In this document: positions 8,627 to 33,516 of the stretch, piece by piece
How positions within the stretch are numbered: position 1 is the stretch's first letter
Layout of the letters: each line of letters starts with the position of its first letter
Assembly: GCA_036609835.1 (NCBI GenBank)
Contig: GCA_036609835.1_4358.1
DNA from: a phage
Reading direction: 5' to 3' (one strand)
Length of the DNA: 44,717 bases
The notes under the pieces: model-generated
The model's database searches: none
Seen by the model: the letters and a program-made list of their open reading frames with translations, nothing else
What the model was told of the DNA's origin: nothing
Made by a program: the position numbers and the translations under genes

Positions 8627-8655
8627 TTGCACACCCCAATATAATAGTGTACTAT
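8627..8655 (+). promoter_or_regulatory. Sigma70-type promoter TTGCAC-N17-TACTAT with AATAG-N4-CTATT palindrome, driving the plus-strand insert operon
   Basis: ttgcacaccccaatataatagtgtactat; 19-mer gcacaccccaatataatag is repeated exactly at 18182; same motif in reverse at 29839-29867. Confidence 0.6.
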
Positions 8656-17363: not shown

Positions 17364-17627
17364 CTATTCCAGAATATTCCTCACATAATCCTGCAACTGG
17401 AATACTTTCAGACGCAGTTGCCGCACGCATTCGGCGTTCTGAACGTCTATAGCCAAATCCTCGTCAGCATCGCTACTTGGCGCTGCCAGTTTGCACGGAG
17501 GCTGCATCATCGTCGTATCCGGTAATGGAATTAGCGTTTGCGACGGCGCGGGACTTGAGCAGGACGCGAGCATCGTCAAAAGTGCACACGCTGCGACCAG
17601 GCGTTTTAATGTACTTAACGACTTCAC
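17364..17627 (-). CDS. Outer-membrane spanin (Rz1-like lipoprotein), 87 aa
   Basis: Lipobox LTMLASC then Pro-rich SSPAPSQTLIPLPDTTMMQPP; starts inside the i-spanin gene in another frame and extends past its end. Confidence 0.65.
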   Translation of the reverse strand: MKSLSTLKRLVAACALLTMLASCSSPAPSQTLIPLPDTTMMQPPCKLAAPSSDADEDLAIDVQNAECVRQLRLKVFQLQDYVRNILE

Positions 17628-17859
17628 GGGTAATCACCTCTGATTTCGTCTTGCCTTCGTTGTCAGCGGCGGCGGCCTTTGATTCATCCTGCTGCTGCCG
17701 TTGTGTTTTCTTCGCTAACTCAGCCTGTACTTTCTGCTGTTGCTGCGAAACGAGATTCGCCCGGCCTTCGTTCCAACCGCTGCGATACCGGTAGATGCCG
17801 TGTGTGTAAGCCAGGATGATGAAACATGCTCCTGCCACGACAGTTGCTTTAAGATTCAT
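17473..17859 (-). CDS. Inner-membrane spanin (Rz-like), 128 aa
   Basis: N-terminal TM helix ATVVAGACFIILAYTHGIY, then Gln/Lys-rich coiled coil; overlapped by Rz1-like ORF. Confidence 0.65.
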   Translation of the reverse strand: MNLKATVVAGACFIILAYTHGIYRYRSGWNEGRANLVSQQQQKVQAELAKKTQRQQQDESKAAAADNEGKTKSEVITREVVKYIKTPGRSVCTFDDARVLLKSRAVANANSITGYDDDAASVQTGSAK

Positions 17860-18179
17860 GTTTCCCCCTTTCTCGATAAGTAAAGCCCCGCCTTAAAGCG
17901 GGGCGCTAGTCCTTATCATTTAAACATAGAAACGGCGTAATCTCAGTAAACCCGTTACTTTTTACACAAGCAATAGAGTATGGCCCTTCCGAACGCGTCA
18001 GCGTAACTACACTCAGGACTTACGTCCCGCTCCGTTACCTGCCCGCGCCGCGGTCGCTTGTTCATACTTCACAAGCTCAGGTGGAGCTTATCATATTTTT
18101 AGTGAAAAGTCAACTATTCGAATAGTTTATTCCAACATTTACAATTCGGAGGAATAACTGGAATACGTAAATAAATAGT

Positions 18180-20054: not shown

Positions 20055-20085
20055 TTGATTAAATTCTACATTCAAATGTAGAATT
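20055..20085 (+). promoter_or_regulatory. Promoter TTGATT-N18-TAGAAT overlapped by a perfect 11-bp-arm palindrome (candidate operator)
   Basis: aattctacatt-ca-aatgtagaatt at 20062-20085; AAACAGGAG RBS and ATG 20116 follow. Confidence 0.55.
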
Positions 20086-20115
20086 TAAACGTACACTTAA
20101 ACAGGAGAAATACAC

Positions 20116-20769
20116 ATGAAACTGCAAACATTAGAGTTCCCTTATGGAGAAATCACTTTTGACCGTGAAAACTTTATTAACGTAAACGAGCTGGTTGACC
20201 AGATGAACCGTTGGCGTTTAGACAACGGCATGGGGGCCAGAGAGCTTCGCCAGGTCATGGCAACGGATGGCTTCAAGATTTTCAAGGAGGAATGCGAAAA
20301 ACAACTCGGAATCGAGAATGCCATAAGGGCGACGAAAGGCCGAAACGGTCGCACCTTTGCATGTCTCCATCTGGCAGTATATATTGCTGAGCAATACAGC
20401 GCCTATTTCCATTTCCTCGTTATCGACCGCTTTATCACACAACGGCAGGTAGAACTACGAAACATTGGCGCGGTGAGCTTTGTCGAGCTTAACGCTGCCG
20501 TTAGTCGAATGATCGAGCGCACGGAGGGAAGAATTGGCCACAGTGGACACTTCATACAGGTGGCTAAAGCGGTAAAGGAATCCGTAGATATCCGCGACGT
20601 AACGGGTTTCGATACATGGGACTCTCAGGATGCGAAGACCAATCAGTTGCGAAGTGACATCCAGAAAGCTCTGGTGACGCTTCTTGACATGGAGGCCGTT
20701 AATACATGGGGTGAACTGAAAGAGGCGATACCTCGGGTTGTGCGTAAATGTGCGGCTAATATACGTTAA
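20116..20769 (+). CDS. KilA-N-like domain protein (putative), 217 aa (moron)
   Basis: KGRNGRTFACLHLAVYIAEQYSAYFHF resembles the conserved KilA-N core; own promoter/operator and terminator; opposite strand to portal and head genes. Confidence 0.45.
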   Translation: MKLQTLEFPYGEITFDRENFINVNELVDQMNRWRLDNGMGARELRQVMATDGFKIFKEECEKQLGIENAIRATKGRNGRTFACLHLAVYIAEQYSAYFHFLVIDRFITQRQVELRNIGAVSFVELNAAVSRMIERTEGRIGHSGHFIQVAKAVKESVDIRDVTGFDTWDSQDAKTNQLRSDIQKALVTLLDMEAVNTWGELKEAIPRVVRKCAANIR

Positions 20770-22280: not shown

Positions 22281-23531
22281 TTAAAGTGCGAAAGTCACCG
22301 GGATGTTGATTACTGGTTTGACCACCGGCATCTCATAAACTACAGGATAGCCGAGAGCATCAGCCATATGGTCAATGACGCCGTCTTTAGCCGGCTCTCC
22401 GTTATCGTCGTATGCCTGCTGTTCCAGCGTCTTGGCTATCTCAGGACATAAGTGGTCATTAACCCACAGCTTACCTTTTTCCAGCGCGGTGTTCACGGCT
22501 AAAACGCGGTCTTTAACCGGGGGGTTGGCTGATTTAGCGCGAACATCGAAACCCGCCTGCTGGAGTAATGCAATATCAGAGATTGACGCCGAGTTTGTCT
22601 TACGGTTCTTGCCGCTAGCGTCGGGGTAAACGACGATGCGGTGGCCTTGTGACTTCCACTTCTCGGTAATTACGCGCACGGTGTCCGGCGTATCGAACAG
22701 GCCCTTCAGTTCTGCAACCGCGTGCCATCCATCTTTACGCTGCACATACACGGCGCTGGCGTTCTTCGTAACGTTGAAGTCCTGCCCGATGTACAGCGTG
22801 TCGCCCGGTTGAATTGTCTCTTTGCTGCGGTGCTTGCGTCGGTCGTATGCGTAATACACGCTTCCGGATGTCAGGTTGACAAACTCACCGTTCAGATACG
22901 CGTTAATCAGTTGCGCCGGGTAAGTCTCAGTCAGCGAGCTAATGTAATCCGGCGGCAGGAATCTGGCGTTCTCGTGAGTGGACGCCTGCACCATTGAGTA
23001 ACTCGGCGTCGGGTTCTCCTTGAACTTGGCGTAAACGAACTTGAACCCTTCCGGAGTCGTGGTGACGGAGATGTGGTTAATTACCCCCGGGATAACCAGA
23101 CGCATGCGGGCTACGATTTTGTTCCACGCCAGCTCGGCTTTCTCACGGCTCAATACGTCCAGCTCATCCACGACCGCAGCCGCGATTTTGAAGCCGACTA
23201 TCGAGCCGGGGTTATCCATCGAGCGGCAGATAACAGTTCCGAGCACCGTCTTACCGCGAGTGACCACGACTTCTTTGTCGCCAGATTTAACCAGCACATC
23301 GAGGCCGAGGAGGTTAGCCGCTTCCTCGAATGTCGGGTAGAAGATGTCGCGGATAGCCGGGTAGGTGGGGCCGAAGTAGCCCAGGCGGGTACCCGGGTTC
23401 CGGAGCATGAACGTAAGCAGGTCGAGACAGCCGACAAATGTCTTGCCGCTACCGAAGCCTCCGACATAGGCCTTGTATTTGTTATCGCAATTCAGGAACA
23501 GTGCCTGTGGTGCGGATAGCTGAATACTCAT
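22281..23531 (-). CDS. Terminase large subunit, 416 aa
   Basis: Walker A VGGFGSGKTFVG near N-terminus; acidic nuclease-like C-terminal half; follows small terminase. Confidence 0.8.
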   Translation of the reverse strand: MSIQLSAPQALFLNCDNKYKAYVGGFGSGKTFVGCLDLLTFMLRNPGTRLGYFGPTYPAIRDIFYPTFEEAANLLGLDVLVKSGDKEVVVTRGKTVLGTVICRSMDNPGSIVGFKIAAAVVDELDVLSREKAELAWNKIVARMRLVIPGVINHISVTTTPEGFKFVYAKFKENPTPSYSMVQASTHENARFLPPDYISSLTETYPAQLINAYLNGEFVNLTSGSVYYAYDRRKHRSKETIQPGDTLYIGQDFNVTKNASAVYVQRKDGWHAVAELKGLFDTPDTVRVITEKWKSQGHRIVVYPDASGKNRKTNSASISDIALLQQAGFDVRAKSANPPVKDRVLAVNTALEKGKLWVNDHLCPEIAKTLEQQAYDDNGEPAKDGVIDHMADALGYPVVYEMPVVKPVINIPVTFAL

Positions 23532-24073
23532 TCCTCTACCCCACCCATGTTCGTTGTTACGATTTTACCTACAGGCTCCGCAACACTGAAAACAATCTCA
23601 GTCGGTGCTGGTTCTTCGGTGGATGCAACCGGTTTCTCTTTGCTGAGGCCCAGTTTAGCCGCGGCAAACGTAGCCGAGATGCCCGCAGCCCCTGTCTCAG
23701 TGAAGTATGCCTCTTCCAGCGCCTGTGCTGTCTCCCAGGCTTCTGCAAATGCGGGAATCTCACGCAGCCAAAGCTTAATAATCGGGATAGTGACTCCGAT
23801 GTGTAAGGCGAAGCGGGCCAGTGACGGTGGTTTATCCTGAATCAGCGGGCGTTCGTCACCCTTAGACGTAGGCACAAGCTCCCACGACGTGCGGTCGAAG
23901 AACTCGATTAGTGCATCGCAATAGCCCGGGTCCCACAACGCGGCGGAATTACGGGATGATTGATAAAGGCTCTGTTTACCGCGCGGTCGTTTACGGCGAC
24001 GGTTTGCGCTAACAGCTTCTTCATGTGCAGCTTGCACCACCTCAGGTGATGGCTGCTTGAGTTTCAGCTTCAT
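23528..24073 (-). CDS. Terminase small subunit (putative), about 181 aa
   Basis: ATG 24073 (MKLKLKQ) with AAGGGGA RBS; basic N-terminal region; overlaps large terminase start. Confidence 0.5.
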   Translation of the reverse strand: MKLKLKQPSPEVVQAAHEEAVSANRRRKRPRGKQSLYQSSRNSAALWDPGYCDALIEFFDRTSWELVPTSKGDERPLIQDKPPSLARFALHIGVTIPIIKLWLREIPAFAEAWETAQALEEAYFTETGAAGISATFAAAKLGLSKEKPVASTEEPAPTEIVFSVAEPVGKIVTTNMGGVEE

Positions 24074-24452
24074 AGAATCCCCTTGCATATGCGTCTGACC
24101 ATCAGAGCGCACCAGACGCGCCCTACGCGTCTAAAGGGATTATATAAGTGGATTGGGCGGGATGTACAGAAAAGCCATCCGTAGATGGCTTGATGGTCAG
24201 GATATGGCCTTAAATATGAAGGCTACTGTAACACACGCGGCGAAGAACGTAACGCAGTTTAGCAGCCATTGCACGACCCAATATCGATATGGTTTATTTA
24301 CAATCCAGTCACTTATTTTATCCAGAATATCTTTCATCTCTCGCTCTCCGATCAGTTATACAGTCCGTGTCGTGGTGCTCTTTTACCATCGCCGCCGTAA
24401 TGGTCGTTAGCTACGGCTATAGCCCAGGCGTTCGGGATGATTAGTAGCCTCA

Positions 24453-26269: not shown

Positions 26270-26768
26270 TCAACCTTTCACCGCGCGCCCAATAGCCTCA
26301 GCCTCTTGCCACGGTTTACCGTCGAACAGCGCCAGACGACCGGCGGTACGACGACGCAGGCCTAGTAACGGTTTGCCGTTCTGGTTGATGAACAGCGCCA
26401 GCTTAGCCCGCAGCGTTGCAATATCACCAGAACGCAGTGCCTTACCCGTGCCGGTAGTAGCAGCAATCACACCAGCACCTGCGTTATACACCAGGTCGCA
26501 CACTGCATCGAACTGTGCCTGTGTCAATGAATGGTGTGCTGCTGCGTCAACCGCAGCTACGGCCTTAGCCATATCACGATTAAGTAACAGGAGGCCTTGT
26601 CCTGGAGTGATGGTCTGCCCCGCCTTAACATGCGGGCCATAGCTTCCATACCCAATAGTCAGGTACTTCTCGTTCGGTGTAGCGCGATACGCGGTTCCGC
26701 GGAATCCCTCGAACGCGGCGGTGAATTTGATGCCATTATCTGAAATGTTTCGAGACACGCTTATGTCC
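26270..26768 (-). CDS. Endolysin, T4-lysozyme-like glycoside hydrolase (GH24-type), 166 aa
   Basis: GTG 26768 with GGAGGA RBS; NGIKFTAAFEGFRGTAYRATPNEKYLTIGYG catalytic-region signature. Confidence 0.75.
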
Positions 26769-27008
26769 TCCGTACGACAGCCACGCCTGACGAATCTGGC
26801 GCAGCGCAACTAAAGTGATTAATGTCTCAGGCAGCGTAGGTGACATGCTGCCCTGTAACAGGTGGATACATCCGGCGGCGCAGACAATAGCTGTCAGGAT
26901 ATAGAGCACCCGGCCAAATAGCCCGTCGTCAACGCTGGGATGATACACATTAAACAGCGATGTGCTCCCGATTGCGAGCATACCACCAAACCAGAATAAC
27001 TCATTCAT
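26736..27008 (-). CDS. Two-TM membrane protein (holin/antiholin-like), 90 aa
   Basis: ATG 27008 (ATGAATGA overlap with upstream stop) after GGAGGTGG; two hydrophobic helices. Confidence 0.5.
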   Translation of the reverse strand: MNELFWFGGMLAIGSTSLFNVYHPSVDDGLFGRVLYILTAIVCAAGCIHLLQGSMSPTLPETLITLVALRQIRQAWLSYGGHKRVSKHFR

Positions 27009-29376: not shown

Positions 29377-29528
29377 ACCAGAACCTCGCATTCATCCCGA
29401 TACACGAACAATAATGACCCTTTGTACTCAATCATAAAACCATAATGGTTGCTGCTGAACGCCAGAAAAACATCACCTACCGAGATACCGAAATCTATAA
29501 GCCTGCGGTCAGTTATACGGATTCGCAT
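29373..29528 (-). CDS. Small hypothetical protein, 51 aa (not in ORF track)
   Basis: ATG 29528 preceded by GAGGGAGG RBS. Confidence 0.35.
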   Translation of the reverse strand: MRIRITDRRLIDFGISVGDVFLAFSSNHYGFMIEYKGSLLFVYRDECEVLV

Positions 29529-29585
29529 TAACGGCAACCTCCCTCAGAGTCGTCGGCACGAGCATCATGATTAGATGCCGTGGGT

Positions 29586-29804
29586 TTATTTAAAGTAGAT
29601 AGCAAATTTCTTGTAACCCGCTGGCTCGTTACGAAGTCCTTTACCGTTAGCGAAACGTTGTACGTTAACAAAATCATTTTCATCCATTCCGTCGGTGTCG
29701 AACGTAAAGAAGTTGCGCTTGTTCCCGATAATTACGCGCTCTGAGATATCGATGCCGTAAACTTCTTTGATTGCGGAAACTACGCTTGCGGTCGCTTTGT
29801 TCAT
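29586..29804 (-). CDS. First leftward early protein, unknown function, 72 aa
   Basis: ATG 29804 about 35 nt downstream of promoter 29839-29867; AAGGAA RBS. Confidence 0.55.
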   Translation of the reverse strand: MNKATASVVSAIKEVYGIDISERVIIGNKRNFFTFDTDGMDENDFVNVQRFANGKGLRNEPAGYKKFAIYFK

Positions 29805-29838
29805 TTCTAAATTCCTTATGTCTCGTTTCGATAAGTGA

Positions 29839-29867
29839 ATAGTATCCTATTATGTTGGGGTGTGCAA
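29839..29867 (-). promoter_or_regulatory. Leftward early promoter TTGCAC-N17-TACTAT with AATAG-N4-CTATT palindrome
   Basis: Reverse complement ttgcacaccccaacataataggatactat; near-identical to plus-strand promoters at 8627 and 18180. Confidence 0.6.
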
Positions 29868-30225
29868 GATAATAGTTACGTTGCCGTTGTGATTCTTCGG
29901 GGAGGGTTGTGCCTTTATTCTTATTACTTGGTAACTAAAGGGCAGGCTTAAGCCTGCCCAATAATCGTTACATTTTTACGGTTGCGAATCTACGGCACAT
30001 TAAGAAACAGTAGATATTTCAGCGGGTTACTTCTTTAAATGAGATTTAGATACACTTATCCATAAACCCCAAGGCAAGCATCTCAGCTGTCTGGGAGGGG
30101 TTGACGAATCCCTCGGGGAGGGTTCGTCAACTCCGTAATATATACAAGTCCCAAAACCATTATACAAACATGTGTCAAGAACTTTCAATAACATTTTTGT
30201 AAAGATTAAATATTACAGAGATTGG

Positions 30226-30254
30226 TTGCTTTTACATTCCCGCTATCCTATACT
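30226..30254 (+). promoter_or_regulatory. Rightward early promoter TTGCTT-N17-TATACT
   Basis: ttgcttttacattcccgctatcctatact about 30 nt upstream of ATG 30286. Confidence 0.45.
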
Positions 30255-30285
30255 CAGTTTCACCAAACAAACAGGAGATATAAAA

Positions 30286-30468
30286 ATGTCGCATTATATG
30301 ACGCAGAATGAAGTAGCTGAACGTATCGGGGTGACACGTCAGACAATTAATAACTGGTTGCGCAGCGGCAAATTCCCTGACTGCTGTATTAAGGTTATGG
30401 GCCGCCGTTTACCGGGAACATTTGACCGTAATAAAGTCGAAGCATGGATTAAGGAGAACGTGAAATGA
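30286..30468 (+). CDS. Small HTH DNA-binding protein (AlpA/excisionase-like), 60 aa
   Basis: ATG 30286 after AAACAGGAGA; MTQNEVAERIGVTRQTINNWLRSGKFP is a classic HTH. Confidence 0.6.
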   Translation: MSHYMTQNEVAERIGVTRQTINNWLRSGKFPDCCIKVMGRRLPGTFDRNKVEAWIKENVK

Positions 30469-30755
30469 AAGGCGTAATTTTCCACAATAAAGCAGAAAAC
30501 GAAGTGTATATGGTTCACTCCGTGGCCGGAGAGTTCGCTTTATGCTTCAATATCTCTTGCCATCTTGATACCTACCGGCCTTTCTGCGTAGAAACAGAAA
30601 TGAAGCTAATTAGCTTACGCCAACTAAGCACCATGTCGGCATCGCTTAACGTAAGAGATAATCTCGAGTATATCGACTTCTATTTCGGCGATGATTTGGT
30701 CGAGGAATATTTTGAAGAGTATAAAAATTTGCTGGAAGGGTTGGCTAAACGGTAA
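30465..30755 (+). CDS. Hypothetical protein, 96 aa
   Basis: ATGA-coupled to upstream HTH gene. Confidence 0.5.
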   Translation: MKGVIFHNKAENEVYMVHSVAGEFALCFNISCHLDTYRPFCVETEMKLISLRQLSTMSASLNVRDNLEYIDFYFGDDLVEEYFEEYKNLLEGLAKR

Positions 30756-30824: not shown

Positions 30825-30953
30825 ATGACAAAGTTAATAGTTCCACAGCTACGCCGCCAGAAACACGGCGCTGACTTCTTCGCACCGGTAAAGATGAACC
30901 GCGCAATGCGCCGTATGCAGGAAGCCTTAGAACGTGCGGAGAAAAAGAAATGA
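30825..30953 (+). CDS. Small basic protein, 42 aa (not in ORF track), coupled to primase-helicase
   Basis: ATG 30825 after AAGGA; stop overlaps primase ATG (ATGA). Confidence 0.3.
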   Translation: MTKLIVPQLRRQKHGADFFAPVKMNRAMRRMQEALERAEKKK

Positions 30954-33190
30954 ATATTGTTTTTGCAACGCTGCGCAACACATTCGATAAAAACCCTGTA
31001 GCGCGTGAGATGCCGCTCGAGCAGTTTGTGGAGTATGTCTGCGATACATCGAAGCGTTTATCCGTGGATCCGTCGTGGTCTAAGGAAGAGTACGACGCTG
31101 CCAAGATTAAGCAGAAAGCTATTGCGCCTGTTGGGGGTCGCCGTAAAAACGCTATCCTGGAAGACAGTGTGGTTAAGTTCGATTTTGACCATCTCAACCG
31201 TACTCAGTACCGCGACCTGACACGCAAATTCAAGAACGCGCCGTTCTTCAATATTCTGCACACAACGGCATCGCATCAGCACGCATGTAAAAACGGAGAT
31301 TACGCTTTCCGCGTTCTGGTTCCGGCTCGCACGCCGTTTAACTCTAACGACGCGTGGATGGTCCAACGGGCTATTTGTGCAGAGTTAGAAATAGATGAAG
31401 CCTTGCGTGACCACTGCACGGAAGACGGCAACCGCCTTATCTATCTGCCACATAGAGAGTCAAAGATAACGGTTACAGAAGGGCGTGTTATCCGTGCTGA
31501 GCGGTACATCAAGAAAGCCGAAGAGATGGGGTTGCGTAAGCGTGAGGCTAAAACACTTGCCGCTGATGAGCATGGGCTTAACGCGGATATAGCGCATTTC
31601 TGCGAAGCCGAGCTTGGCCTTGACGCTTTATCTTCCGGGCGCGGGTACGAAGTCCCATGCCCTAACGAACATCTGCATACAGGCAAAGGCTCCACAAGCA
31701 TCATGCTTGATGGTAAAGAAGTGCGCTTTGTGTGCCAGCATACAAACAACGGCGCTTGCACCGAGCTTAACCGCCGACAGCATTTGGCCCTGCGTATGTG
31801 CGGCCTGCCAGACGAGCTTAACGTAGACAAGCAACCTATCAGTATTAACAGCATTCGTGCGGCTCTGCCTGATTTACCGGATGAAGAGATTGAAGAACTG
31901 CACCGCACAGAGAACGAGGAGCCTATAACTTGCAGCCTCGACGACCTGGAAGACGACGAGGACTCAGAGGAGGACGAGTTACCGGAGCCGGTAAAGGCTG
32001 ATTTCGTCGTTGAGGGGTACATGCCGTCGGATTGTATCTGGGATATCGTCGGTGAGTCTGGCACGTACAAATCATTCTATACGCTGGGGATGATGTATCT
32101 CAGCGCCGCCGGGTACCGGTTTGCAGGCGCTGATACCCAGCGTTGCCACCATTTCTATATTGATGGTGAAGGTGGTGCAGCTACACGCACACGTATCGAT
32201 GCGCTCGCGGCTAAATATGGCGAGGAAGGTAAAGATTATGTACATGTCATCGATATAGGCGAAATACTCGCTACGCATGGTGATAAAAAAATTCCAGCTC
32301 TAATCCGCAGGATGCGCGAAACCGCAGGGGATGAACCTATTGGCATGGTTGCCTTCGACACCCTTAACCAGACGCTGGCCCTGACGATTGATAAGTTCGA
32401 CGAGAACAGTTCATCAACGGCAATCGGTATGGGTAAAGTTATCGCCATCCTGAAAGAAGTGCGCGATGCAACTAAAGCCGCTGTCGGTGTCGTTCACCAT
32501 ACTCCGAAGGGCGGAAAGAAAGCCCGCGGCAGTGGAGCATTGTATGCGGGTGTCGACGTGGAACTGACGATTGAACGTGCAACCGACCGTCAAATAAACG
32601 TATACCACTCGAAATTTAAGCACGGTCCGCAACAGAAGACGGTTGGCATGGTACTGGAGTCTGTACAGTTCCGTGAAGCACCGCCGCCGAAAGAGTACCG
32701 CGCGGTTGAGTTCCTCGGTAGCACAGAGGAATACGGCACAATAGTAAACCTCGACCTGCCTGAGCCGCACAAGGCGCTTGTATTGATGCCGTGGGGCTTC
32801 GAGCCATTCAAGACCGACGAGGAGAAAGAGCGGGAAGAAGGGTTGACGAAAGAAGGTAAGCAAAAAGTAAAGGAAGAAGTTAAACGCGGCAGGGATGAAG
32901 TAAGGAAGGAGTCAATACTTTCGGCACTGGAAGACCTGCAACAGTCAGATGACACAGGTCGCGGTTTTACTCAGCAGCAGATAGTGGCTCGTTCCGGTGA
33001 CTTCTCTGTGACTAACACCCATCTTGATAAAATGTTGAAAGATGGAGAACTAATGCTTGGTTGCGATGCTAACGGCGAAGTAGTACCGAGAACATATCGT
33101 ATACCCGAAAGAATAGGGGATAGATTAAGGCCGAAGACACTATACGAACCAAATGAGATGCTGGTGGTGACAGAGGAGGATTTGGAATAG
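30950..33190 (+). CDS. Primase-polymerase (AEP-type) fused to RepA/DnaB-like helicase ATPase, 746 aa
   Basis: DxD (KFDFDHL) and sxH (TTASHQH) primase motifs; Walker A GESGTYKS and Walker B MVAFDTLNQ. Confidence 0.7.
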   Translation: MNIVFATLRNTFDKNPVAREMPLEQFVEYVCDTSKRLSVDPSWSKEEYDAAKIKQKAIAPVGGRRKNAILEDSVVKFDFDHLNRTQYRDLTRKFKNAPFFNILHTTASHQHACKNGDYAFRVLVPARTPFNSNDAWMVQRAICAELEIDEALRDHCTEDGNRLIYLPHRESKITVTEGRVIRAERYIKKAEEMGLRKREAKTLAADEHGLNADIAHFCEAELGLDALSSGRGYEVPCPNEHLHTGKGSTSIMLDGKEVRFVCQHTNNGACTELNRRQHLALRMCGLPDELNVDKQPISINSIRAALPDLPDEEIEELHRTENEEPITCSLDDLEDDEDSEEDELPEPVKADFVVEGYMPSDCIWDIVGESGTYKSFYTLGMMYLSAAGYRFAGADTQRCHHFYIDGEGGAATRTRIDALAAKYGEEGKDYVHVIDIGEILATHGDKKIPALIRRMRETAGDEPIGMVAFDTLNQTLALTIDKFDENSSSTAIGMGKVIAILKEVRDATKAAVGVVHHTPKGGKKARGSGALYAGVDVELTIERATDRQINVYHSKFKHGPQQKTVGMVLESVQFREAPPPKEYRAVEFLGSTEEYGTIVNLDLPEPHKALVLMPWGFEPFKTDEEKEREEGLTKEGKQKVKEEVKRGRDEVRKESILSALEDLQQSDDTGRGFTQQQIVARSGDFSVTNTHLDKMLKDGELMLGCDANGEVVPRTYRIPERIGDRLRPKTLYEPNEMLVVTEEDLE

Positions 33191-33199
33191 GTAAAAAGA

Positions 33200-33218
33200 A
33201 AGGGGCTTTAAGCCCCTT
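33200..33218. terminator. Hairpin terminator between convergent primase and regulator genes
   Basis: aaggggctttaagcccctt. Confidence 0.55.
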
Positions 33219-33423
33219 CACCGAACGCCAGCCACTTGGCGTCTACTTGCAGCACTTCCGCCAGTTTGAACAGCGTTGCCGGGCGGACGTCCTGAGTTAC
33301 TCCAAGTGCCAGTTGGTTAATCGCGCCCTGGGAAACGCCGGTCAGGGCCGCCAAACGGCGCTGGGAGATGCCGAGTTCTTTACGGCGTTGTTCTACACGG
33401 ATACCTAGTTCAGATGGTTGCAT
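33208..33423 (-). CDS. XRE-family HTH transcriptional regulator (Cro/CI-like), 71 aa
   Basis: QRRKELGISQRRLAALTGVSQGAINQLALG is a canonical XRE helix-turn-helix; divergent from rightward promoters. Confidence 0.7.
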   Translation of the reverse strand: MQPSELGIRVEQRRKELGISQRRLAALTGVSQGAINQLALGVTQDVRPATLFKLAEVLQVDAKWLAFGEGA

Positions 33424-33487: not shown

Positions 33488-33516
33488 TTGACATGTGAAT
33501 AGTTCGCTATTATAGT
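33488..33516 (+). promoter_or_regulatory. Rightward promoter TTGACA-N17-TATAGT with AATAG-N4-CTATT palindrome in the spacer
   Basis: ttgacatgtgaatagttcgctattatagt; a second related element (ttgatatgtgaatagtaccatat) lies at 33443-33465. Confidence 0.65.

What the first reader, a model, noticed from the sequence alone, without database searches (positions are those of the whole stretch)
29805..30285. About 480-bp non-coding divergent control region with G-rich repeats and palindromes
The region between the leftward and rightward early operons contains three copies of (C/T)NGGGAGGGTT (29897, 30091, 30112). Two of them form a near-perfect inverted repeat gttgacgaatccctc/gagggttcgtcaac. There is also a perfect hairpin gggcaggcttaagcctgccc (29941-29960), besides the two divergent promoters. 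No ORF of 60 aa or more lies on either strand. This is a candidate replication origin, packaging site or regulatory/small-RNA locus.
Basis: seen in the sequence. Interest (0 to 1): 0.45.

Follow-up and report, generated by a model that had tools for sequence, protein, structure and literature searches.

The report
Phage early promoter–leader–terminator control region
This 480-bp gap in a lytic E. coli phage (Kagunavirus) genome is its early transcription switchboard: three promoters, plus a short untranslated leftward RNA that ends at a terminator conserved in over 300 related phages. It is not a demonstrable replication origin or packaging site, and the G-rich repeats that drew attention are mostly incidental.

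Summary
The window is a Kagunavirus genome; its closest relatives are JSSK01 and Bas70. The sequence features are real, with small coordinate errors.

The region is a mosaic of four modules:
1. A leftward promoter P_L2 (29839-29867). Its spacer carries a palindrome that recurs across the genome.
2. A ~105-bp block (29909-30010) that is ~95% identical in 335 phage records from Kagunavirus and Salmonella Jerseyvirus. It is centred on hairpin 29940-29959, which reads as a minus-strand intrinsic terminator.
3. A lineage-specific leader with a 5' hairpin (30098-30134), driven by P_L1 (30159-30188). P_L1 is one of only three 11/12 sigma-70 matches in the genome.
4. The rightward promoter P_R (30226-30254).

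P_L1 should therefore make a ~220-nt untranslated RNA ending at the conserved terminator.

Two of the G-rich copies are simply the arms and flank of the 5' hairpin. The third sits on a recombination junction and is variable or deleted in relatives.

I found no iterons. I found no link between the block and the helicase-primase domain variants. Nothing indicates physical DNA ends here.

A paralogous, even more conserved promoter-leader-terminator cassette precedes the spanin gene (17860-18140). This favours a cis-acting, conditionally terminated leader.

No transcript data exist, so the function is inferred.

The parts
29836..29856 (.). Palindromic motif TGAATAGTATCCTATTATGTT (AATAG-N4-CTATT). 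It is one copy of a genome-wide regulatory motif and a probable operator for a phage HTH regulator.
   Evidence: AATAGTNNNCTATTAT with up to 2 mismatches gives 13 hits against 1.0 expected. It matches the PHIRE 'phage promoter' consensus tgAATAGTa-ccTATTat-T of fBC-Eco01 (PMC9825357). It maps onto that record's 'promoter6'.
29839..29867 (-). P_L2, the leftward promoter of the small-gene operon. The -35 is TTGCAC (29867-29862), the spacer is 17 nt, and the -10 is TACTAT (29844-29839). Predicted start is about 29832.
   Evidence: The ~35-nt sequence TTGCACACCCCAAyATAATAGGnTACTATTCA recurs at 8641(+), 18194(+) and 28866(-). Each copy lies 25-45 nt upstream of an SD+ATG. It is conserved in all Kagunavirus versions of the region.
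29868..29896 (.). Conserved stretch upstream of P_L2 (AGTTACGTTGCCGTTGTGATTCTT). It is the right end of the module shared with K1G- and Snoke-type phages.
   Evidence: Homology with the Snoke, K-01 and K1H intergenic regions runs over 29819-29897 at 97.5% and stops there.
29897..29908 (+). G-rich copy 1 (TCGGGGAGGGTT). It is a hypervariable purine-rich patch on a mosaic junction.
   Evidence: There are 13 variants, including deletions, among 38 block-bearing sequences. Only the window and Bas70 carry this exact form. It is the junction between two modules.
29909..30010 (.). Terminator block: about 105 bp, nearly invariant and non-coding.
   Evidence: 335 phage records match (266 Salmonella, about 65 Escherichia), nearly all at 90-100% identity, with a single place in nearly every record and mostly no annotated feature under the match. 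Mean column identity is 95% over 22 distinct sequences. It is the best-conserved segment against the Jerseyvirus genomes compared. It is absent from E. coli genomes.
29933..29959 (-). Hairpin 1 (29959-29940, an 8-bp G+C stem with a 4-nt loop) plus a UUUAGUU tail (29939-29933). This is the predicted intrinsic terminator of the P_L1 RNA.
   Evidence: It is the top terminator-like site on the minus strand. All cells pair. One pair shows a compensatory C-G to U-A change in 4 sequences. One A-U became G.U, which is valid only on the minus strand. It is annotated as a terminator in fBC-Eco01. Unrelated minus-strand terminator-like hairpins occupy the same place in Snoke-type and K1G-type phages.
29931..29971 (.). 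Invariant GTAAC (29931-29935) and GTTAC (29967-29971) that can extend hairpin 1. With the extension, the plus strand reads hairpin + AUUUUUAC, so the terminator may be bidirectional.
   Evidence: These 5 pairs never vary in 22 sequences, so there is no covariation evidence for or against them. The MFE folds use them.
29992..30012 (-). Island TACTG...(T)GCCGT(AG), 42-54 nt upstream of the terminator stem. It is retained in otherwise unrelated leader versions.
   Evidence: TGCCGTA is shared by 5 of 6 leader types, and TACTGA by 5 of 6. The combined pattern is not enriched genome-wide (5 found, 2.7 expected), but 2 of the 5 hits lie in the two leaders. This is weak evidence.
30023..30158 (-). Lineage-specific body of the P_L1 leader ('type A'). 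It is untranslated.
   Evidence: It is shared by about 21 records only. Other lineages have different sequence here. There is no conserved ORF. The 226-nt minus-strand fold is -74.9 kcal/mol, z -5.5.
30098..30134 (-). Hairpin 2, a 5'-proximal stem-loop of the P_L1 RNA. It contains G-rich copies 2 and 3 (30090-30101 and 30113-30124).
   Evidence: At least 6 unrelated stem sequences sit at the same position in other lineages, with compensatory changes. In the window there is no U-tract on either strand.
30159..30188 (-). P_L1: TTGAAA-18-TATAAT. Predicted start is about 30152.
   Evidence: It is an 11/12 match and one of only three such matches in 44.7 kb (0.44 expected). Equivalent leftward promoters with a TTGACA -35 are found in K1H and by eye in type-B and Snoke-type phages. 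It is annotated as 'host promoter3' in fBC-Eco01.
30226..30254 (+). P_R: TTGCTT-17-TATACT. It drives the HTH (30286-30468) and helicase-primase (30950-33190) operon.
   Evidence: This is read from the sequence. The homologous TTGATT-17-TATACT was scored in Ent2 and ZCEC5. The module 30222-30286 is 98.5% identical in Snoke.
29933..30152 (-). Predicted ~220-nt untranslated P_L1 RNA (inferred, not observed).
   Evidence: It follows from combining P_L1, hairpin 2 and the terminator. No transcriptome data for this phage group were found.

Best explanation
The region is the phage's divergent early transcription-control region, assembled from four exchangeable modules.

Two back-to-back host-type promoters sit in the AT-rich core. 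P_R fires rightward into the HTH and helicase-primase genes. P_L1 fires leftward.

P_L1 does not reach a gene directly. It produces a ~220-nt untranslated RNA. This RNA starts with a stable stem-loop (30098-30134) and ends at a conserved intrinsic terminator (29959-29940 plus UUUAGUU).

Downstream of that terminator lies a second leftward promoter, P_L2. A palindromic operator-like motif sits in its spacer. P_L2 serves the leftward operon, which ends in the holins and the endolysin.

The terminator therefore insulates or gates the leftward operon from the strong constitutive P_L1. I infer that the P_L1 RNA is a cis-acting leader whose read-through is conditional, that is, subject to attenuation or antitermination.

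The G-rich repeats are by-products. Two are the arm and flank of the 5' hairpin. One lies on a recombination junction.

What is shown: the sequence elements, their conservation, and their orientation. What is inferred: that the RNA is made, that it terminates there, and that termination is regulated.
For: - P_L1 is one of three 11/12 sigma-70 matches in the genome, and all three are intergenic.
- Hairpin 1 is the best minus-strand terminator-like site in 16 kb.
- Three sequence-unrelated versions of this region all place a hairpin oriented for minus-strand termination at the same spot: the block type, the Snoke type TGGTGCCTTCGGCACCA+CGTTCGTTTC, and the K1G-type long hairpin ending in CUCUUUU.
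- Hairpin 1 pairs show one compensatory change and one G.U that is valid only on the minus strand.
- Hairpin 2 is structurally conserved, with at least 6 unrelated stems.
- The same terminator-then-class-I-promoter layout recurs 900 bp further left, with a canonical terminator at 29010-28989.
- A second sigma-70-like promoter, ~220-nt leader and terminator cassette (18136 to 17885) runs straight into the Rz-like spanin gene. In Snoke/K-01-type phages, part of that spanin leader replaces the window's P_L1 leader. The leaders therefore appear functionally interchangeable, and at least one of them must be read through.
- Independent software annotation of fBC-Eco01 places a host promoter, a terminator and a phage promoter at exactly these three positions.
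Against: - No transcript, 5'-end or 3'-end data exist for any Guernseyvirinae phage in the searched literature.
- The U-tract is short and interrupted (UUUAGUU).
- P_L2 lies between the terminator and the genes, so read-through is not required for expression. P_L1 may exist only to make the RNA.
- The ~50 nt on each side of the hairpin are far more conserved than a plain terminator needs, so some function is unexplained.
- No antiterminator (Q family) was recognised among 27 proteins scanned with Pfam.
- Strand assignment of hairpin 2 is ambiguous. In K1G/K1H, L008 and L011 it has a U-tract on the plus strand.
Confidence: 0.6

Rival explanations
1. The P_L1 RNA is itself the product: a stand-alone phage small RNA of about 220 nt. 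It would act in trans or as an antisense on host or phage transcripts. Its nearly invariant 3' ~75 nt would be the functional part.
For: - A top-ranked promoter is devoted to an RNA that ends before any gene, while the operon has its own promoter.
- The 3' part upstream of the terminator is 95-100% conserved across two genera with different hosts.
- There is an A/U-rich stretch before the terminator.
- The fold is strong, with z -5.5.
Against: - There is no Rfam match.
- The U-tail is short for Hfq-type sRNAs.
- About half of the Escherichia records carrying the neighbouring P_L2 module lack the block and carry unrelated leaders instead.
- In some phages the leader is a paralogue of the spanin leader, which is directly followed by a gene and so acts in cis.
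- No extended complementarity to the rest of the phage genome was found.
Confidence: 0.2
2. It is a transcription-primed replication origin of the T7 primary-origin or T4 oriF type. The P_L1 and/or P_R transcript would open the AT-rich core or the conserved block, and would prime or load the T7-gp4-like helicase-primase without sequence-specific iterons.
For: - The region sits immediately upstream of the replication genes.
- It contains the lowest-GC stretch of the genome (23-27% at 30150-30240).
- No dedicated initiator protein was recognised.
- The helicase-primase is annotated as T7 gp4-like in Snoke.
- P_L1 is a strong promoter making a non-coding transcript.
- The cumulative GC-skew minimum lies at about 30000.
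Against: - GC skew tracks gene strand everywhere, including local plus-strand islands at 9-12 kb and 20-21 kb, so the minimum is explained by transcription.
- The RNA is C-rich rather than G-rich over the repeats, which is unfavourable for R-loops.
- The leader and block are replaced by unrelated sequence in close relatives that have 100% identical helicase cores.
- There is no experimental origin mapping.
Confidence: 0.12
3. It is an initiator-dependent origin in which the G-rich repeats or palindromes are binding sites for the helicase-primase.
For: - There are two exact 12-mers and one near copy within 230 bp.
- The region is adjacent to the helicase-primase gene.
Against: - Copy 1 is variable or deleted in 36 of 38 related sequences.
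- Copies 2 and 3 exist only in the ~21-record type-A lineage.
- There is no iteron array.
- The block co-occurs with 3 C-terminal and 2 N-terminal helicase-primase domain types, and the same domain types occur with different leaders.
Confidence: 0.03
4. It is the pac (or cos) site, where terminase starts packaging.
For: - The block is highly conserved and non-coding.
- Several GenBank records begin inside or next to it.
Against: - Those records are circular assemblies opened at different points within the block or in the non-coding DNA next to it. Their two ends are contiguous.
- PhageTerm found no termini in fBC-Eco01.
- Jerseyviruses package by headful.
- terS/terL (23528-24112 and 22281-23531) are 5.7 kb away.
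- The block is absent from many Kagunaviruses.
Confidence: 0.03

Closest known systems
Lambda P_R' - 6S RNA - tR' late leader (Q-dependent antitermination)
   Same: - A strong constitutive sigma-70 promoter makes a ~200-nt untranslated RNA that stops at an intrinsic terminator upstream of lysis genes.
- Here, both cassettes of this design precede lysis functions: the holin/endolysin operon and the spanin gene.
   Different: - No Q-family protein was recognised.
- QBE and pause elements were not tested.
- A separate promoter (P_L2) lies between the terminator and the genes.
- About 15 small early-type genes precede the lysis genes.
- This is a resemblance of layout only.
Predicted promoters and terminators annotated in Escherichia phage fBC-Eco01 (OM272052; PMC9825357)
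   Same: It is the same DNA element. 'Host promoter3' is P_L1, the 'terminator' is hairpin 1, and 'phage promoter6' is the palindromic motif/P_L2.
   Different: - Those are software calls with no interpretation.
- The paper ascribes the motif to a 'phage-encoded RNA polymerase'. My Pfam scans covered only a subset of the proteins and did not include a search for such a polymerase.
- The untranslated RNA unit, its conservation and its modularity are not described there.
T7 primary origin / T4 oriF-oriG (transcription-primed origins)
   Same: - A promoter plus AT-rich DNA lies next to replication genes.
- The replisome is T7-like (gp4-like helicase-primase, PolA-type polymerase).
- There are no iterons.
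   Different: - There is no evidence that replication starts here.
- The transcript ends at a structured terminator rather than in an unwinding element.
- The element is replaceable in relatives.
Small early phage RNAs next to control regions (lambda oop, P22 sar)
   Same: A short leftward non-coding RNA from a constitutive promoter, ended by a stem-loop terminator, in the early control region.
   Different: - oop and sar are antisense to a neighbouring gene. The P_L1 RNA overlaps no gene.
- There is no sequence or Rfam relationship.
HK022 put RNA (cis-acting antiterminator RNA)
   Same: Promoter-proximal stem-loops in an early leader lie upstream of terminators. No protein antiterminator would be needed.
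   Different: - put has two defined stem-loops. Here the 5' hairpin has no conserved sequence between lineages.
- This was not tested and is only a lead.

Membership tests
Intrinsic (Rho-independent) terminator | G+C-rich stem-loop | tested here: met
   There is an 8-bp stem with 7 G-C pairs and a 4-nt loop at 29959-29940. All cells are paired in 22 sequences, with one compensatory pair.
Intrinsic (Rho-independent) terminator | U-tract immediately 3' of the stem | tested here: inconclusive
   The minus-strand tail is UUUAGUUACC. It passes the scan's 5-of-8 rule but is short and interrupted. With the extended stem, the plus strand has AUUUUUAC.
Intrinsic (Rho-independent) terminator | RNA 3' ends at the site / termination in vitro | not testable with these tools
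   No transcript data were found.
Sigma-70 promoter (P_L1, P_R, P_L2) | -35 and -10 hexamers with 16-18 bp spacing | tested here: met
   P_L1 scores 11/12. P_R is TTGCTT-17-TATACT, with its homologue scoring 9/12. P_L2 is TTGCAC-17-TACTAT and is repeated 4 times.
Sigma-70 promoter (P_L1, P_R, P_L2) | Mapped transcription start | not testable with these tools
   Starts at about 30152(-), 30261(+) and 29832(-) are predictions only.
Iteron / initiator-type replication origin (lambda ori, P4 ori-crr) | Array of three or more direct repeats | tested here: not met
   There are no tandem repeats. Only two-copy direct repeats were found.
Iteron / initiator-type replication origin (lambda ori, P4 ori-crr) | Co-variation of the site with the initiator's DNA-binding domain | tested here: not met
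   The block occurs with 3 C-terminal and 2 N-terminal helicase-primase domain types.
Iteron / initiator-type replication origin (lambda ori, P4 ori-crr) | Adjacent AT-rich unwinding element | tested here: inconclusive
   GC is 23-27% at 30150-30240, but this stretch is the promoter core.
Iteron / initiator-type replication origin (lambda ori, P4 ori-crr) | Replication initiates here / autonomous replication | not testable with these tools
   This needs marker-frequency analysis or origin cloning.
pac / cos packaging site | Physical DNA ends or read-start pile-up at the site | tested here: not met
   This rests on the literature only. No termini were found in fBC-Eco01. Records starting in the block are cut circles.
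pac / cos packaging site | Location in or next to the small-terminase gene | tested here: not met
   terS is at 23528-24112, 5.7 kb away (annotation of relatives).
Lambda-type Q antitermination unit | Constitutive promoter plus short terminated leader upstream of lysis genes | tested here: met
   This is met by prediction only.
Lambda-type Q antitermination unit | Q-family antiterminator gene | tested here: not met
   There are no Q-family Pfam hits among 27 proteins. The scan did not cover every ORF.
Lambda-type Q antitermination unit | Q-binding element and promoter-proximal pause | not tested
   -
Any Rfam RNA family | Covariance-model match at or above the gathering score | tested here: not met
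   There were 0 matches in the whole window. At E<=10, only chance-level hits (at most 17 bits) were found in 29700-30400.

The most novel reading that the evidence does not exclude
The P_L1 leader and the even more conserved spanin leader (17860-18140) may belong to an undescribed family of cis-acting leader RNAs. The spanin leader is 95-99% identical in 180 phages. Through such leaders, Guernseyvirinae phages would time the leftward-operon and lysis genes by conditional termination, with no recognisable N/Q-type antiterminator. The shared TACTG...GCCGT island upstream of each terminator would be the recognition element. Alternatively, the invariant 3' part of the P_L1 RNA could be a trans-acting phage sRNA.
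Probability: 0.2. Interest if true: 0.6.

Novelty: new member of a known kind. Interest (0 to 1): 0.33.

Why it matters
Kagunavirus and Jerseyvirus phages are widely isolated for therapy and biocontrol, and are used as small engineering chassis. Yet nothing is known experimentally about their gene regulation.

This work gives a concrete, testable map of the early control region:
- three promoters;
- a gated or insulating terminator;
- a candidate operator motif.

It also shows that two non-coding leaders are among the most conserved DNA in the subfamily. That tells engineers which intergenic DNA not to disturb. It also points to a possible termination-based timing mechanism for lysis genes.

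It removes an attractive but unsupported origin/pac reading.

Tried and rejected
- Rfam, whole window at gathering threshold and the region at E<=10: nothing.
- Tandem repeats and iterons: none.
- GC skew as an origin signal: rejected, because skew follows gene strand.
- Linking block presence to the helicase-primase C-terminal domain looked promising with 3 genomes. It failed with 25.
- Records starting in the block as evidence of physical ends: rejected, because they are contiguous circles.
- Small ORFs:
  - The 38-aa (29835-29951) and 33-aa (30101-30202) ORFs are annotated in Bas70.
  - The first spans the indel-ridden hypervariable patch, and the second is lineage-specific.
  - Candidate 10-12-aa ORFs in the RNA are not conserved.
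- Host homologue, prophage copy or attB: no match in 5,426 E. coli genomes.
- Complementarity of the block to the rest of the phage: none beyond 10-12 nt.
- RNAalifold on 22 type-B leaders: a few covarying pairs, but the palindromic structures score alike on both strands, so strand could not be decided.
- Read by eye and judged chance or lineage-specific:
  - a DnaA-box-like TTATCCATA at 30057 (not conserved);
  - an IHF-like site present in type B only;
  - G-quadruplex potential of GGGAGGGG-N14-GGGGAGGG (type A only, on the template strand of P_L1).
- Literature: no transcriptomics, origin or pac mapping for this subfamily.
Full report
**Identity and context.** The window is a complete or near-complete Kagunavirus genome (subfamily Guernseyvirinae, lytic E. 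coli siphophages). Over 29500-30600 the best matches are JSSK01 and Bas70, at about 99%. The finding lies between two units. To the left is an operon of small genes whose first ATG is at 29804 on the minus strand. To the right is an operon that starts with a 60-aa HTH_17 protein (ATG 30286) and a 746-aa helicase-primase (30950-33190, AAA_25 core). The leftward operon ends in two holins and an endolysin (26270-26809, Phage_lysozyme).

**Checking the observation.** The gap is non-coding.
- The 20-bp perfect palindrome is real but lies at 29940-29959, one base left of the stated position.
- The inverted repeat 30100-30114/30118-30131 is a 14-bp stem with one bulge, and it extends to 30098-30134.
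- TCGGGGAGGGTT occurs exactly twice, at 29897 and 30113. GGGAGGGTT occurs twice in the whole window against 0.24 expected.
- The third 'copy' at 30090 has an extra G and does not fit the consensus.

**Anatomy.** Comparison with about 100 related loci shows that the region is a mosaic of four modules with sharp junctions. The loci came from GenBank phages, IMG/VR and metagenomes.

*Module 1 (29819-29897).* It is shared at 97.5% with K1G-, K1H-, K-01- and Snoke-type phages, and the homology stops at 29897.
- It carries P_L2, which is TTGCAC-17-TACTAT on the minus strand.
- The spacer of P_L2 holds the palindrome AATAG-N4-CTATT.
- That ~35-nt promoter recurs at 8641(+), 18194(+) and 28866(-), each just upstream of an SD+ATG.
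- The same palindrome also sits in the spacer of three TTGACA/TTGACG-17-TATAGT promoters at 33498, 36324 and 39899.
- The motif gives 13 hits against 1.0 expected.
- It is the 'phage promoter' consensus reported for fBC-Eco01 (PMC9825357).

*Module 2 (29909-30010).* This is a nearly invariant non-coding block.
- It is found in 335 phage records, of which 266 are from Salmonella. Almost all matches are 90-100% identical, nearly always a single place per record, and most have no annotated feature under the match.
- Mean column identity is 95% across 22 distinct sequences.
- Against the Jerseyvirus genomes compared, it is the best-conserved segment of a 12-kb neighbourhood.
- It does not occur in any complete E. 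coli genome.
- It centres on hairpin 1.

*Module 3 (30023-30221).* This is lineage-specific and shared by about 21 records. It contains hairpin 2 and P_L1. P_L1 is TTGAAA-18-TATAAT on the minus strand, and it is one of only three 11/12 sigma-70 matches in the genome (0.44 expected).

*Module 4 (30222-30286).* It carries P_R (TTGCTT-17-TATACT), the SD and the ATG. It is 98.5% identical in Snoke.

**The G-rich repeats.** Copy 1 sits exactly on the junction between modules 1 and 2.
- Among 38 block-bearing sequences it has 13 forms, including 8-10-bp deletions. Only the window and Bas70 have the exact 12-mer.
- Phages with the identical hairpin 2 carry different copy-1 sequences, so there is no co-variation between the copies.
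- Copies 2 and 3 are simply the 5' flank and the 3' arm of hairpin 2.

The repeats are therefore not a conserved functional motif.

**Hairpin 1 as a minus-strand terminator.**
- The scan ranks it first among terminator-like sites in 16 kb.
- In 22 distinct sequences every cell pairs. The loop-closing pair changes C-G to U-A in four sequences. One A-U becomes G.U, which is a pair only on the minus strand.
- Loops vary freely.
- Phages that lack the block have unrelated hairpins at the same place, and each is oriented for the minus strand. The Snoke type has TGGTGCCTTCGGCACCA followed by CGUUCGUUUCGUUUCG. The K1G type has a -32.6 kcal/mol hairpin ending in CUCUUUU.
- The same layout of a terminator followed by a class-I promoter recurs at 29010-28989/28866, with a canonical terminator.
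- The fBC-Eco01 GenBank record independently annotates a host promoter, a terminator and a phage promoter at the positions of P_L1, hairpin 1 and P_L2.

**Hairpin 2.** At the equivalent position other lineages carry at least six unrelated stem sequences, with ΔG from -10 to -27 kcal/mol. Compensatory changes occur within lineages, for example U-A to G-C. It is therefore a conserved structure. In the window it lacks a U-tract on either strand and lies at +18 to +54 of the predicted P_L1 RNA. The 226-nt minus-strand sequence folds at -74.9 kcal/mol, z -5.5.

**Model.** P_L1 makes a ~220-nt untranslated RNA running from 30152 to about 29933. It has a 5' stem-loop and ends at the conserved terminator. 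P_L2, downstream of the terminator and carrying an operator-like palindrome, serves the leftward operon. Two HTH proteins are candidate regulators: HTH_17 at 30286-30468 and a Cro/CI-type protein at 33208-33423. The promoter region of the second also carries the palindrome.

**A paralogous cassette.** At 18136 to 17885 on the minus strand there is a matching arrangement.
- A TTGACT-17-TAAGCT promoter is followed by a ~220-nt leader.
- The second-best terminator-like hairpin of the 16-kb scan follows (GCCCCGCTTTAAGGCGGGGC+UUUACUUAU).
- This runs directly into the SD and ATG of an Rz-like spanin (PHROG 2536, E 6e-54).
- This 281-bp non-coding stretch is 95-99% identical in 180 Kagunavirus and Jerseyvirus records.
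- Part of it is homologous to the leader that Snoke/K-01-type phages carry in the divergent region, in place of the window's leader: 92% over 76-78 nt in Snoke and 79% over about 145 nt in K-01. Several of those records show two places.

The leaders are thus exchanged between the two sites. At the spanin site I recognised no promoter between the terminator-like hairpin and the gene start 25 nt downstream. If that holds, the spanin-site leader must be read through for the spanin to be made. This favours a cis-acting, conditionally terminated leader over a purely trans-acting sRNA. It also recalls the lambda P_R'-6S-tR' design upstream of lysis genes. However, no Q-family protein was recognised among 27 proteins scanned. 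P_L2 makes read-through dispensable at the site of the finding.

A short island, TACTG...GCCGT, lies 42-54 nt upstream of the terminator in all leader versions. The statistics for it are weak.

**Origin.**
- There are no iterons.
- GC skew switches at about 30000, but it tracks gene strand everywhere, including small plus-strand islands.
- The block co-occurs with three different helicase-primase C-terminal domains and two N-terminal domains. The same domain types occur with different leaders.
- A T7-like, transcription-primed origin cannot be excluded. It rests only on position and AT-richness.

**Packaging.**
- terS/terL are 5.7 kb away.
- PhageTerm found no termini in fBC-Eco01.
- Jerseyviruses use headful packaging.
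- The records that begin in the block (dunkel, blauehaus) are circles opened there.

**What remains unexplained.** The ~50 nt on either side of hairpin 1 are almost invariant across two genera, far more than a terminator requires. No known RNA family matches.

**Verdict.** This is an ordinary kind of element, a divergent early promoter/leader/terminator region. It is described here in more detail than in the literature. It contains an unusually conserved non-coding block of unknown extra function. The G-rich-repeat, origin and pac readings are not supported.

Noticed in passing
window 17860-18140 (minus strand): A second promoter, ~220-nt leader and terminator cassette lies directly upstream of an Rz-like spanin gene (17473-17859). 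This non-coding stretch is 95-99% identical in 180 Kagunavirus and Jerseyvirus records, which is more conserved than coding DNA. It has no Rfam match. Part of it is the leader that Snoke/K-01-type phages carry in the divergent early region.
   Followed up: partly
window 8641, 18194, 28866, 29838 (class I); 33498, 36324, 39899, 33454 (class II): The genome-wide palindrome AATAG-N4-CTATT is embedded in the spacer of two promoter classes: TTGCAC-17-TACTAT and TTGACA-17-TATAGT. The Cro/CI-type HTH gene (33208-33423) has two copies in its own upstream region, which makes it a candidate global regulator. The fBC-Eco01 paper attributes the motif to a phage RNA polymerase; I did not check for one.
   Followed up: partly
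window-wide, e.g. 5965, 7562, 13305, 29880, 35028, 38994, 40034: The octamer GTTGCCGT occurs 17 times against 2.1 expected, and GTTGCCGTTG occurs 7 times against 0.13 expected. The copies are mostly on the plus strand and mostly inside genes. One copy (29880) and its complement (about 29995-30001) flank the terminator block as an inverted repeat in all versions of the region. This is unexplained.
   Followed up: partly
window 30950-33190 versus K1G and Ent2: The helicase-primase is a mosaic. The helicase core is 100% identical to K1G. The N-terminal ~340 aa (primase part) is only 6-24% identical to K1G and Ent2. The C-terminal ~100 aa comes in at least three types that reassort independently.
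   Followed up: partly
window 11100, 18445, 20774, 43138 (also 33200): Canonical, probably bidirectional terminators of one type, AAGGCCCC-loop-GGGGCCTT, lie at operon ends.
   Followed up: no
window 20059-20088: A 30-bp near-perfect AT-rich palindrome, TTAAATTCTACATTCAAATGTAGAATTTAA (13-bp stem), lies just upstream of a KilA-N-domain gene (20116-20769). It overlaps a promoter-like match.
   Followed up: no
L002 (Bas70) 2166-2282 and 2432-2533 = window 29835-29951 and 30101-30202: Two short 'hypothetical protein' CDS annotated inside the non-coding region of Bas70 look spurious. One spans the indel-ridden patch, and the other overlaps hairpin 2 and is lineage-specific.
   Followed up: yes
L003 (Ent2) about 673-1200; L004: In Salmonella Jerseyviruses the equivalent 'non-coding' gap is about 1 kb. 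It contains an extra hairpin (GCGCTTGCCGnnAGGCAAGTGCG) and probably unannotated small genes with good SD sequences.
   Followed up: no
literature on packaging: The published statements conflict. JSSK01's TerL was placed with 3'-cos HK97-type terminases (PMC11641727). PhageTerm found no termini in fBC-Eco01. Jerseyvirus K47 was called P1-like headful.
   Followed up: no
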